From contig DATCDU010000020.1 in the NCBI GenBank assembly GCA_036510525.1, positions 246 through 64,245 of the forward strand: a stretch of 64,000 nt of DNA, given 5' to 3'. Origin of the DNA: Minisyncoccota bacterium. GTDB taxonomy: Bacteria; Patescibacteriota; Minisyncoccia; UBA6257; 2-01-FULL-56-20. The translations under genes and the position numbers were made by a program. Positions 57,081-57,336 of the stretch are shown here, piece after piece. The notes under the pieces are model-generated. The model saw only the letters and a program-made list of their open reading frames with translations, had not been told where the DNA came from and searched no databases. Position 1 is the first letter of the stretch, and each line of letters starts with the position of its first letter.

Positions 57081-57235
57081 TCTGCGTGTCAAAAGCAGTG
57101 TTCTACCACATGAACTATGGTCCCATGATTCCGGGCAGAGACACCATAACGCATACGCCATTAAATTTGTGTTAAGTGGAAAAGTAAAGCGGCCACTATA
57201 AGTGGCCGCTTTACCTGACACGCAGAGTTTTTTAG
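57081..57235. other. Structured non-coding segment closed by a 12-bp long-range inverted repeat and followed by a T-run
   Basis: ctctgcgtgtca (57081-92) pairs with tgacacgcagag (57217-28); inner 12-bp hairpin aaagcggccact-ata-agtggccgcttt; then ttttttag. Confidence 0.3.
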
Positions 57236-57291
57236 TTCCGCAGCTTCGCAGAACCTTGCTTCGCTAATAATACTAACTCAGACACTTAAAA

Positions 57292-57336
57292 AGTCAAAAA
57301 ACTTTTAATGATTTTTTAATTAATATATCTCATTGT
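57292..57336. repeat. 44-nt AT-rich conserved motif, copy b
   Basis: AAGTCAAAAACTTTTAATGATTTTTTAATTAATATATCTCATT; matches 5812-5857. Confidence 0.6.

What the first reader, a model, noticed from the sequence alone, without database searches (positions are those of the whole stretch)
57081..57336. Second structured segment plus 44-nt motif (copy b) packed into a 515-nt pilB-pilC intergenic region together with one member of each palindrome family
Between the pilB stop (57452) and the pilC start (56937) lie, in order, family-B element X, motif copy b, a 12-bp-stem-closed 124-nt structured segment followed by a T-run (a plus-strand terminator-like unit antisense to the pilus operon), and family-A copy 2. 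The co-location of all three repeat types suggests they are parts of one composite element, or a hotspot, rather than independent regulatory sites.
Basis: seen in the sequence. Interest (0 to 1): 0.6.

Follow-up and report, generated by a model that had tools for sequence, protein, structure and literature searches.

The report
Masked tRNA-like RNA gene between pilB and pilC
The "structured segment plus motif" is a previously undescribed small-RNA gene on the same strand as the pilus genes: a strong promoter, a short RNA ending at a terminator, and a tRNA look-alike whose anticodon arm base-pairs with that short RNA, a pairing kept by compensatory mutations across related uncultured CPR (candidate phyla radiation) bacteria.

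Summary

On the minus (pilus-gene) strand, the 44-nt motif is a promoter: an AT-rich upstream element, then TTGACT-16-TAGTAT. It drives an ~85-nt sRNA-like module made of a 5' hairpin, an A-rich linker, a single-stranded segment L and an intrinsic terminator. A 72-nt tRNA-like gene follows at 57053-57124. It has G3:U70 and A73, a 9-nt anticodon loop with an invariant GACA, and an odd T-loop.

Across nine units from relatives the tRNA-like body is nearly invariant, but the anticodon arm varies. L, A3 and the 5' stem strand all co-vary:
- L:A3 has 14 pairs, 6 of them compensatory, 98% paired.
- Cognate duplexes are -23 to -28 kcal/mol in the seven intact units, against -1 to -4 for the anticodon stem.

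A collinear paralogue with a different matched pair lies at 30406-30668.

The two palindromes come and go independently among relatives, and the spacer ranges from 82 nt to more than 4 kb. The region is therefore a hotspot, not one composite element. Function is inferred: antisense masking of a tRNA mimic.

The parts
57270..57320 (-). It has an AT-rich UP-like element (TTAAAAAATCATTAAAAG), a -35 TTGACT (57297-57292), a 16-nt spacer and a -10 TAGTAT (57275-57270).
   Evidence: Promoter scan. The -35 is invariant apart from one substitution in L021 (TTAACT), and the -10 is TAnnAT in all nine units. The motif occurs 3 times in the window against 0.02 expected. It sits upstream of other non-coding RNAs in L012 and L018, and a variant precedes the intron-containing tRNA-Asp.
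57179..57263 (-). sRNA-like 5' module. It contains a 5' hairpin (57234-57255), an A-rich linker (57228-57233), single-stranded segment L CUCUGCGUGUCA (57216-57227), an intrinsic terminator hairpin (57184-57214) and a U-tract (57179-57183). The 5' end is inferred from the -10.
   Evidence: Hairpins are supported by one-sided G.U changes and compensatory changes: the terminator has 5 of 12 pairs changed on both sides. The U-rich tract after the stem is conserved in relatives. There is a weak Rfam resemblance to an sRNA architecture only.
57216..57227 (-). It is complementary to the anticodon loop and 3' stem of the tRNA-like RNA.
   Evidence: RNAalifold picks this helix. It has 14 pairs, 6 with changes on both sides, and 98.2% of cells paired. 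Three of the covarying pairs (columns 81/218, 86/213, 87/212) lie in the anticodon loop, so they are independent of the anticodon stem. Cognate duplexes are -23.4 to -28.0 kcal/mol in the seven intact units.
57125..57178 (-). Conserved linker. It holds the UUUAA..AUUUAAU box, a TATGGT box (57142-57147, a possible extended -10 for the tRNA-like RNA) and the leader strand GCCCGG (57131-57136), which pairs with the trailer.
   Evidence: Invariant columns in alignment A1. The leader-trailer helix (columns 167-172/255-260) has one covarying pair, UA to CG in 3 sequences. The TGn prefix is present in only about half of the units, so the internal promoter is inferred.
57053..57124 (-). tRNA-like RNA. 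Features: acceptor stem with G3:U70 and A73; a normal D-arm with GG; a 4-bp anticodon stem and 9-nt loop UUUUGACAC; a T-arm with a G53.A61 mismatch and G58; no encoded CCA.
   Evidence: ARAGORN labels it 'tRNA-Ser(tga)'. Rfam tRNA scores 38.6 bits against 67-76 for the window's real tRNAs. The body is nearly invariant and the anticodon arm variable across nine units. Three of the 4 anticodon-stem pairs are compensatory.
57044..57049 (-). Trailer strand CCGGGC. It pairs with the leader strand and extends the acceptor stem.
56941..57027 (.). Family-A palindrome, an independent insertion. It has a 19-nt core loop GAACGGTCATCTGCCTGGA closed by GCC/GGC, and 34-nt arms. The outer part of the right arm is the pre-existing pilC -10 region.
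   Evidence: The site is empty in L008, L019, L021 and L022a and filled in L005, L018 and L025.
57340..57455 (.). Family-B palindrome X, an independent insertion. It has 29-bp perfect arms, one of which covers the pilB stop codon, and a 58-nt core of two small hairpins.
   Evidence: Present in L012, L022 and L025; a remnant in L008 and L027; absent in L005 and L019.
56944..56952 (-). pilC's own extended -10 promoter (TGTTATTAT), 6 nt upstream of the ATG. This implies a leaderless pilC mRNA.
   Evidence: TGnTAT(T/C)AT-N6-ATG is conserved in every relative, including those that lack the unit (L014, L016, L027, L029). No Shine-Dalgarno sequence is present. Inferred from sequence.
30406..30668 (+). 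Paralogous unit (motif copy c). It has the same promoter, 5' hairpin, L_c CCGUUUUGGCA, terminator hairpin, linker and TGATACGGT box. Its cloverleaf-like payload has acceptor GGGCCCG/CGGGUCC (G3.U70) and anti-L UGCCAAAACGG at the anticodon-arm position.
   Evidence: An nhmmer profile of A1 aligns collinearly over positions 3-249, E = 9e-12. The MFE fold has the same architecture. L_c:arm_c is -20.5 kcal/mol, against -8 to -10 for cross-pairs with unit b.

Best explanation
The region holds a self-contained non-coding RNA gene, transcribed in the same direction as pilB and pilC. It is not part of their mRNAs, because pilC has its own promoter immediately before its ATG.

Shown:
- A strong sigma-70-type promoter with an AT-rich upstream element (the '44-nt motif') precedes a 5' hairpin, an A-rich linker, a 12-15-nt single-stranded segment L, and a canonical intrinsic terminator.
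- About 55 nt further on lies a tRNA-like RNA with an alanine-type acceptor stem (G3:U70, A73), normal D-arm contacts, a deviant T-loop, and a 4-bp anticodon stem with a 9-nt loop.
- L is perfectly complementary to the 3' part of that loop plus the 3' stem strand.
- L, the 5' stem strand and the 3' stem strand co-vary three ways among species, between tandem duplicates and between paralogues. Both the cloverleaf and the L-bound form are therefore under selection.

Inferred mechanism:
- Termination yields an abundant ~85-nt sRNA.
- The tRNA-like RNA arises by read-through or from a weak internal extended -10 promoter.
- L nucleates on the U-turn-presented UGACA of the anticodon loop and zips into the stem, displacing its 5' strand.
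- The result is a 12-15-bp duplex stacked on the terminator hairpin. This masks the tRNA mimic, and probably marks it for double-strand-specific cleavage.

The role of the unmasked tRNA mimic is unknown. The most likely options are an alanine-accepting, non-decoding tRNA-like molecule or a decoy or toxin-like RNA held in check by its cognate antisense.
For: Strand and promoter:
- Promoter on the minus strand, conserved in all units.
- 36 G.U cells; pairing falls from 94.9% to 88.1% if the opposite strand is assumed to be the RNA.

tRNA-like fold:
- ARAGORN and Rfam at 38.6 and 35.4 bits.
- MFE of the isolated RNA is a cloverleaf in 6 of 9 units.

L:A3 pairing:
- Chosen by RNAalifold.
- 14 pairs, 6 compensatory, 98.2% paired; sliding the partner by 1-3 columns drops pairing to 48% or less over the whole structure.
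- Three compensatory pairs lie in loop positions that the anticodon stem does not share.
- Three of the 4 anticodon-stem pairs are compensatory.

Variation and energetics:
- Seven distinct L/A3 types among nine units, including two different matched pairs in tandem units of one contig, L022.
- Real tRNA-Val and tRNA-Ile of the same relatives keep invariant anticodon arms.
- Cognate duplexes are -23 to -28 kcal/mol in the seven intact units, against -1.3 to -3.9 for the anticodon hairpin, and are best or near-best in the cross matrix.
- The whole transcript has z = -7.5.

Paralogue:
- Copy c keeps the architecture with an unrelated matched pair.

Independence from pilC:
- pilC's own promoter is conserved in relatives that lack the unit.
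Against: - There is no expression data. Transcript ends, terminator efficiency and whether L acts in cis or in trans are all inferred.
- The internal promoter is weak or absent in about half the units.
- The unit is patchy and dispensable. It is absent from L012, L015, L016, L027 and L029, and reduced to a remnant in L014. It looks partly decayed in L019 (G2>A, 1-nt deletion in A3) and L021 (G3>A, C.A mismatch).
- Only nine units from one narrow clade were found, and these are related sequences.
- Alanylation is inferred from G3:U70 and A73 only.
- The leader-trailer helix could mean the tRNA-like part is never excised.
- No partner protein was identified.
Confidence: 0.55

Rival explanations
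1. The region encodes one long structured non-coding RNA of about 230 nt. In this reading L:A3 is a permanent long-range helix, forming a pseudoknot with the acceptor stem. The 'terminator' is only a structural hairpin stacked on it. The tRNA-like part is a protein-binding module held by the leader-trailer helix and is never released or aminoacylated.
For: - The MFE and centroid of the full transcript contain L:A3 stacked on the hairpin, as does the consensus fold.
- A covarying leader-trailer helix closes the acceptor end.
- No clear promoter precedes the tRNA-like part.
- Paralogue c folds the same way.
Against: - The anticodon stem, which is mutually exclusive with L:A3, also shows 3 compensatory pairs, so the cloverleaf state is selected as well.
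- The hairpin has every feature of an intrinsic terminator, including a conserved U-tract.
- L014 retains only L plus the hairpin, directly after pilB, where it would serve as a terminator.
Confidence: 0.25
2. The locus is a genuine decoding tRNA with an unusual anticodon loop: Ser-UGA as ARAGORN labels it, or Val-GAC, or an Ala-charged recoding tRNA. The upstream complementarity would be incidental or a processing aid.
For: - It scores above the Rfam tRNA gathering threshold.
- U8, A14, G18G19 and A21 are present, and GAC preceded by U and followed by A is invariant in the loop.
- G3:U70 is conserved in 8 of 9 units.
Against: - There is no long variable arm, so it is not tRNA-Ser.
- The loop is 9 nt and the stem 4 bp.
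- The anticodon arm is the most variable part, whereas real tRNAs of the same relatives have invariant arms.
- The T-arm has G53.A61 and G58.
- A canonical tRNA-Val(GAC) lies 3.8 kb away.
- The unit is absent or decayed in close relatives.
Confidence: 0.08
3. The 12-bp arms are DNA-level inverted repeats. They would be the ends of a miniature transposable element, or the recombination sites of an invertible (phase-variation) segment in the pilus locus.
For: - Perfect inverted repeats flank 124 nt in a pilus locus.
- The same genome carries palindromes whose arms copy flanking DNA.
- The region is an insertion hotspot.
Against: - The arms differ among orthologues by compensatory change, rather than being a conserved terminal repeat.
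- A third strand, the anticodon 5' stem, co-varies with them.
- G.U occurs at the helix end in 3 units.
- The interior contains half of a tRNA-like gene that is intact only in the observed orientation.
- Every contig recovered for all nine distinct units has the same orientation.
- No other copy of the arms exists in the window.
- Paralogue c keeps the pairing with unrelated sequence.
Confidence: 0.05
4. A plus-strand terminator-like or antisense non-coding RNA unit ends at about 57235 and, together with both palindromes, forms one composite mobile element.
For: - On the plus strand the 12-bp stem is followed by six T.
- All three repeat types are co-located.
Against: - A stem enclosing 124 nt is not an intrinsic terminator.
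- The T-run is the complement of a conserved A-rich linker.
- No plus-strand promoter was found.
- The G.U pattern favours the minus strand.
- The components occur independently in relatives.
Confidence: 0.02

Closest known systems
Canonical bacterial tRNA (Rfam RF00005), in particular tRNA-Ala
   Same: - Cloverleaf fold with a 7-bp acceptor stem.
- U8, A14, G18G19 and A21 present.
- UUC in the T-loop.
- G3:U70 and A73, the alanine identity set.
   Different: - 9-nt anticodon loop on a 4-bp stem.
- Hypervariable anticodon arm.
- G53.A61 and G58 in the T-arm.
- Half the Rfam score of the neighbouring real tRNAs.
- Leader-trailer helix.
- Patchy presence among relatives.
Bacterial tRNA mimics: the tmRNA tRNA-like domain and YrlA/Y-RNA-like tRNA mimics (from my own knowledge of Chen et al. 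2014; not checked in the papers here)
   Same: A tRNA-shaped module inside a stable, strongly expressed non-coding RNA. Acceptor features resemble tmRNA's G3:U70. The anticodon arm is replaced or extended by a long helix.
   Different: There is no tag reading frame and no pseudoknot ring. The RNA ends are at the acceptor stem, not at the anticodon side. There is no Rfam match to tmRNA or any Y-RNA family. No rsr gene is known nearby.
Tandemly encoded antisense sRNA/target pairs of type I toxin-antitoxin loci such as zor-orz, and antisense RNAs that nucleate on U-turn loops (from my own knowledge)
   Same: - An adjacent, co-oriented sRNA with a strong promoter and a 12-18-nt seed for its neighbour.
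- Duplicated loci with diverged cognate pairs (L022; paralogues b and c).
- The loop presents bases for rapid pairing.
   Different: The target is a tRNA-like RNA, not a toxin mRNA. No peptide ORF is present. Toxicity is untested.
T-box leader-tRNA recognition
   Same: A leader RNA next to a terminator base-pairs with a tRNA anticodon.
   Different: Here 12-15 bp invade the stem, rather than 3-4 nt reading the anticodon. There is no Stem I, specifier loop or antiterminator. There is no Rfam T-box hit. The partner tRNA-like RNA is encoded in the same unit.
REP or MITE-type intergenic repeats
   Same: Intergenic palindromes that recur in the genome. The two palindrome families here are repeat-like.
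   Different: For the structured segment there is no conserved terminal repeat, no target duplication and no multiple copies. For the palindromes the core is conserved and the arms are locus-specific, which is the reverse of MITEs and REPs.

Membership tests
tRNA (RF00005) | Cloverleaf scoring above the curated threshold | tested here: met
   38.6 bits against a gathering score of 29. It was missed by the default filters. L018's copy scores 35.4 bits.
tRNA (decoding) | 7-nt anticodon loop on a 5-bp stem, with an anticodon arm conserved among close relatives | tested here: not met
   Positions 31-39 are always mismatched, giving a 9-nt loop. There are 7 arm variants in 9 units, while tRNA-Val and tRNA-Ile arms are invariant.
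tRNA (decoding) | Canonical T-arm (G53-C61, T54-A58) | tested here: not met
   G53.A61 in all units; G58 in all units except L008.
tRNA-Ser (ARAGORN label) | Long variable arm | tested here: not met
   The variable region is 4 nt, AGAA.
Alanine-accepting tRNA-like RNA | G3:U70 wobble pair and A73 | tested here: met
   G.U in 8 of 9 units, and also in paralogue c. A73 in all units.
Alanine-accepting tRNA-like RNA | Actual aminoacylation by AlaRS, with a free CCA 3' end | not testable with these tools
   CCA is not encoded (ACAC). The leader-trailer helix may block the end.
   The stem encloses 124 nt. The scan finds no plus-strand terminator. The real hairpin at 57184-57214 is followed by U's only on the minus strand.
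Trans- or cis-acting antisense sRNA with a cognate target | Own promoter and terminator; a single-stranded seed complementary to the target; pairing maintained by covariation | tested here: met
   Expression and regulation were not tested.
RNA toxin-antitoxin module | Toxicity of one partner that is neutralised by the other | not testable with these tools
   Only architectural resemblance is available: tandem genes, diverged cognate pairs, patchy distribution.
MITE or composite mobile element | Conserved terminal inverted repeats, target-site duplication, several copies, and presence or absence as one block | tested here: not met
   The arms vary by compensatory change. There is no other copy. 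The promoter, unit and palindromes occur independently.
Invertible DNA switch | Both orientations of the segment between the inverted repeats are found | tested here: not met
   Every contig recovered for all nine distinct units shows the same orientation. Read-level data are not available.

The most novel reading that the evidence does not exclude
The unit and its paralogue may be members of an RNA-only 'lock-and-key' system. In it, a conserved tRNA-shaped scaffold (alanine-type acceptor, non-decoding) is a harmful or regulatory effector. Each copy is neutralised only by its own upstream antisense sRNA through invasion of the anticodon arm. This would be an RNA toxin/RNA antitoxin or addiction-like module built on a tRNA mimic, with specificity that diversifies after duplication.
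Probability: 0.15. Interest if true: 0.85.

Novelty: new variant of a known kind. Interest (0 to 1): 0.64.

Why it matters
- CPR/Patescibacteria have tiny genomes and almost no characterised regulatory RNAs. A strongly promoted, multi-copy RNA family there is likely to matter to the cell.
- I know of no described case, and four full-text literature searches found none, of a tRNA look-alike whose anticodon arm is the programmable target of a cognate antisense RNA encoded just upstream. It links tRNA mimicry with antisense control.
- It offers a simple, testable pair of RNAs. The tests are alanylation, RNase P or RNase III processing, and toxicity.
- Practically, gene callers label the locus 'tRNA-Ser(UGA)', which would corrupt tRNA inventories and genetic-code inferences for these genomes.
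- The comparative data also show that the pilB-pilC gap in this clade is a swap site for promoter-delimited non-coding RNA units and for core-conserved palindromes.

Tried and rejected
- **Rfam.** Searches at gathering and at permissive E-values, on the region, the whole window and two loci, gave only the weak tRNA hit. Other matches were chance microRNA or sRNA hits to the hairpins.
- **Exact-protein lookup.** Lookup of the window's PilC found nothing. Relatives were reached through homologues instead. One lookup returned no DNA.
- **Collection scans.** Pattern scans for the tRNA-like gave 6 metagenome stretches and 1 genome. The single viral hit is a chance match in coding sequence.
- **Viral searches.** The T-arm and the family-A core are absent from viral contigs, so a phage origin is not supported.
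- **UAUGGU/ACCAUA pairing.** RNAalifold proposed pairing between the UAUGGU box and the tRNA-like 5' end. I rejected it because the few substitutions break it.
- **Standard promoter for the tRNA-like part.** Hexamer spacings are 11-13 or 21-22 nt, so a standard -35/-10 promoter was rejected. Only an extended -10 remains possible.
- **tRNA-like as a processing signal for pilC mRNA.** Rejected because pilC keeps its own promoter in relatives that lack the unit.
- **Other targets of L.** None in the window with at most 1 mismatch.
- **L012 and L018 upstream RNAs.** They share only the promoter with window RNAs.
- **153-aa antisense ORF in L012.** It has no Pfam family.
- **Literature.** Searches found no description of such a unit.
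Full report
**What is in the sequence**

pilB ends at 57452-57454 and pilC starts at 56937, both on the minus strand, leaving a 514-nt spacer.
- A perfect 12-bp inverted repeat at 57080-57091 and 57216-57227 encloses 124 nt and is followed by six T. No shuffle of the surrounding 312 nt reached 12 bp (0 of 300, maximum 10).
- An AT-rich motif occurs three times in the window against 0.02 expected.
- Two long palindromes, 56941-57027 and 57340-57455, have cores that recur at 6990-7018 and 60779-60801.

ARAGORN calls it 'tRNA-Ser(tga)'. 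The Rfam tRNA model gives 38.6 bits, above threshold but about half the score of the three real tRNAs in the window. Its 5' half lies inside the 'structured segment', and its anticodon loop plus 3' stem strand form one arm of the 12-bp stem.

**Reading the region on the minus strand**

Downstream of the pilB stop codon, the order is as follows.
1. Palindrome X.
2. The motif, which is a promoter: an AT-rich upstream element, TTGACT, a 16-nt spacer and TAGTAT.
3. A 5' hairpin.
5. Segment L (CUCUGCGUGUCA).
6. A GC-rich hairpin followed by U's, which is an intrinsic terminator.
7. A conserved linker.
8. The tRNA-like RNA.
9. A trailer that pairs with the leader.
10. The family-A palindrome.
11. 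A TGTTATTAT box 6 nt before the pilC ATG.

That last box, TGnTAT(T/C)AT-N6-ATG, is conserved in every relative examined, including those with only an 82-141-nt spacer. No Shine-Dalgarno sequence is present. I infer that pilC is a leaderless transcript with its own extended -10 promoter, so the RNA unit is not needed to express pilC.

**Relatives**

PilC homologues carry source names 'Candidatus Paceibacterota'. One genome record with an identical unit is labelled 'uncultured Candidatus Saccharibacteria'. The organism is therefore an uncultured CPR/Patescibacteria bacterium from soil or peat metagenomes.

Loci around PilC homologues of 80-100% identity show a highly variable pilB-pilC spacer:

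| Locus | Spacer |
|---|---|
| Same-strain contigs (L001, L002) | 514 nt, identical |
| L025 | 489 nt |
| L005 | 385 nt |
| L008 | 347 nt |
| L012 | 835 nt, with an antisense 153-aa ORF and a different RNA behind the same promoter |
| L014 | 141 nt |
| L029 | 129 nt |
| L016 | 88 nt |
| L027 | 82 nt |
| L015 | holds a 1479-aa gene |

A metagenome pattern scan added L018, L019, L021 and L022. L022 carries two tandem units. In all there are nine distinct units.

**The key result**

In alignment A1 the tRNA-like body (acceptor, D-arm, T-arm) is nearly invariant, while the anticodon arm is the most variable part. The real tRNA-Val and tRNA-Ile of the same relatives behave the opposite way: their anticodon arms are invariant.

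L changes in step with the arm:

| Unit | L | A3 |
|---|---|---|
| window | CUCUGCGUGUCA | UGACACGCAGAG |
| L005 | UCUUCACUUGUCA | UGACAAGUGAAGA |
| L008 | UCUUUGCGUGUCGA | UCGACACGCAAAGA |
| L018, L022a | UCUUUGCUUGUCAG | CUGACAAGCAAAGA |
| L022b | UCUUCGCGUGUCA | UGACACGCGAAGA |
| L025 | UCUCUGCGUGUCA | UGACACGCAGAGA |

The supporting measures are:
- RNAalifold selects the L:A3 helix.
- Counting gives 14 pairs, 6 with changes on both sides, and 98.2% of cells paired. Sliding the 3' partner by 1-3 columns drops pairing to 48% or less over the whole structure.
- Three of the compensatory pairs (columns 81/218, 86/213, 87/212) are loop positions, so they are independent of the anticodon stem.
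- The 4-bp anticodon stem itself has 3 compensatory pairs.
- Both mutually exclusive pairings are therefore conserved.
- Cognate L:arm duplexes are -23.4 to -28.0 kcal/mol in the seven intact units, against -1.3 to -3.9 for the anticodon hairpin. They are best or near-best in the cross matrix.
- The full window transcript folds with z = -7.5, with L:A3 stacked on the terminator hairpin.
- The structure contains 36 G.U cells. It loses pairing (94.9% to 88.1%) if the opposite strand is taken as the RNA. This, with the promoter, fixes the strand.

**A paralogue**

A profile of A1 aligns collinearly to the window's motif copy c (30429-30668, plus strand; E = 9e-12). The match covers the promoter, 5' hairpin, L, terminator hairpin, linker, a TGATACGGT box and a cloverleaf-like payload with a G3.U70 acceptor stem.
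- Its L (CCGUUUUGGCA) and its anticodon-arm position (UGCCAAAACGG) are unrelated in sequence to unit b, yet complementary to each other.
- That duplex is -20.5 kcal/mol, against -8 to -10 for cross-pairs.
- Its MFE fold has the same architecture.
- The design is thus conserved across paralogues.

**Nature of the tRNA-like RNA**

- G3:U70 (8 of 9 units, plus paralogue c) and A73 are the alanine identity set (established knowledge). AlaRS does not read the anticodon, which fits a free-to-vary anticodon arm.
- The loop always contains U/C-GACA. This looks like U33-GAC-A37 displaced by two extra 5' nucleotides.
- The T-arm has G53.A61 and, in all units but L008, G58.
- A 6-bp leader-trailer helix with one covarying pair extends the acceptor stem.
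- These features, together with the variable arm and patchy presence, argue against a decoding tRNA.

**Mechanism (inferred)**

- The strong promoter and terminator should yield an abundant ~85-nt sRNA whose single-stranded seed is L.
- The tRNA-like RNA comes from read-through or from a weak internal extended -10. A TGn prefix on the TATGGT/TACGGT box is present in about half the units.
- L can nucleate on the loop's UGACA and displace the short 5' stem strand.
- This gives a 12-15-bp duplex coaxial with the terminator hairpin, about 27 bp in all and long enough for a double-strand-specific RNase.
- I read this as antisense masking or inactivation of a tRNA mimic.
- Whether L acts in cis (one long RNA) or in trans cannot be decided here.

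**Composite element or hotspot**

The components are independent:
- The unit occurs with family A only (L005, L018), with both palindromes (window, L025) and with no complete palindrome (L008, which keeps only a family-B remnant, and L019).
- Family B occurs without the unit (L012), and a family-B remnant without it (L027).
- The promoter motif also drives unrelated RNAs (window 5600-5841, L012, L018:242).
- A variant of the motif precedes an intron-containing tRNA-Asp.
- L012 and L022 are identical up to the -35 and then diverge, which suggests unit exchange at the shared promoter.
- L014 keeps only L, the terminator and the linker. L019 and L021 carry damaging changes.

The region is a hotspot, and the unit is dispensable in some lineages.

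**The palindromes**

- Both families have a conserved core and locus-specific arms.
- The family-A core GAACGGTCATCTGCCTGGA is identical in the window (two copies), L005 (two copies), L008, L018 and L025, but the arms differ.
- The arms include the tRNA-Ile 3' end, the pilB stop codon or the pilC -10 region.
- Comparison with empty sites shows one arm is pre-existing flank and the other its inverted copy.
- At the tRNA-Ile site the window has a family-B core and L008 a family-A core inside the same outer arm, GCGCACCATAAGAAA.
- I could not determine the mechanism.

**Comparison with what is known**

No Rfam family other than tRNA matches. No viral copies were found. Literature searches found no description.

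The closest analogues are tRNA mimics in stable RNAs, tandem antisense/target pairs and T-box anticodon reading. The unit differs from each in defining features (see the membership table).

**Verdict**

The finding is a new variant of tRNA-like and antisense RNA systems. The anatomy is well supported and the function is inferred.

Noticed in passing
window 30406-30668 (+): A collinear paralogue of the whole unit: the same promoter, 5' hairpin, seed, terminator hairpin and linker, and a cloverleaf-like payload with G3.U70. It has an unrelated but matched seed/anti-seed pair, CCGUUUUGGCA/UGCCAAAACGG.
   Followed up: partly
window 5600-5841 (-): The third copy of the promoter motif drives a ~180-nt RNA closed by a ~20-bp long-range helix (arms 5604-5627 and 5754-5777, 24 nt at 79% complementarity). 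It has no Rfam match, its fold z-score is -2.9, and its identity is unknown.
   Followed up: partly
window 6968-7035, 56941-57027, 57340-57455, 60742-60868; also L005, L008, L012, L018, L022, L025: Two families of long perfect palindromes have a conserved core and locus-specific arms. The arms are inverted copies of adjacent sequence (tRNA-Ile 3' end including CCA, pilB stop codon, pilC -10 box). The core orientation is flipped in L025. At the tRNA-Ile site the window has a family-B core and L008 a family-A core within the same outer arms. The mechanism is unknown.
   Followed up: partly
window 7793-8083 (+): A tRNA-Asp(GUC) gene is split by a ~230-nt insertion in the anticodon loop and was missed by ARAGORN and Rfam. 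It matches the reported group I introns at position 35/36 of Patescibacteria tRNA-Asp and tRNA-Asn genes (PMC13011429). Its promoter carries a variant of the AT-rich motif.
   Followed up: partly
window 8052-8109 and 11572-11629; 17945-18004 and 19092-19151: Two pairs of direct repeats (78% and 95% identical) both end in a tRNA-3'-end-like ...GGAGCA. The first pair starts in the tRNA-Asp 3' exon and brackets 3.5 kb (thymidylate kinase, NUDIX). The second brackets tRNA-Cys and a 314-aa ORF with no Pfam family. They may be integration-site duplications.
   Followed up: no
window 56935-56952 (-), and the same place in all relatives: pilC has a conserved TGnTAT(T/C)AT box 6 nt before its ATG and no Shine-Dalgarno sequence. 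It is probably a leaderless mRNA with an extended -10 promoter, so pilB and pilC are not one operon.
   Followed up: partly
L022 4434-5113 (-): Two complete units lie in tandem between pilB and pilC. Each has its own promoter and its own matched seed/anticodon-arm pair.
   Followed up: yes
L012 2749-2790 compared with L022 5113-5070: The sequences are identical through palindrome B, an inverted copy of the pilB 3' end and the promoter up to the -35. They then diverge completely into different RNAs. This suggests that non-coding RNA units are exchanged by recombination at the shared promoter.
   Followed up: partly
L012 2611-2730, L021 about 2390-2430, L022 about 5130-5230: An inverted copy of the last ~5 codons and stop codon of pilB lies just downstream of the gene, forming a hairpin out of coding sequence.
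   Followed up: no
window 14936-15036 (-): A SAM-I riboswitch scoring 58 bits.
   Followed up: no
source names: Source names for the lineage disagree: 'Candidatus Paceibacterota' on the proteins and 'Candidatus Saccharibacteria' on a genome record with an identical unit.
   Followed up: no
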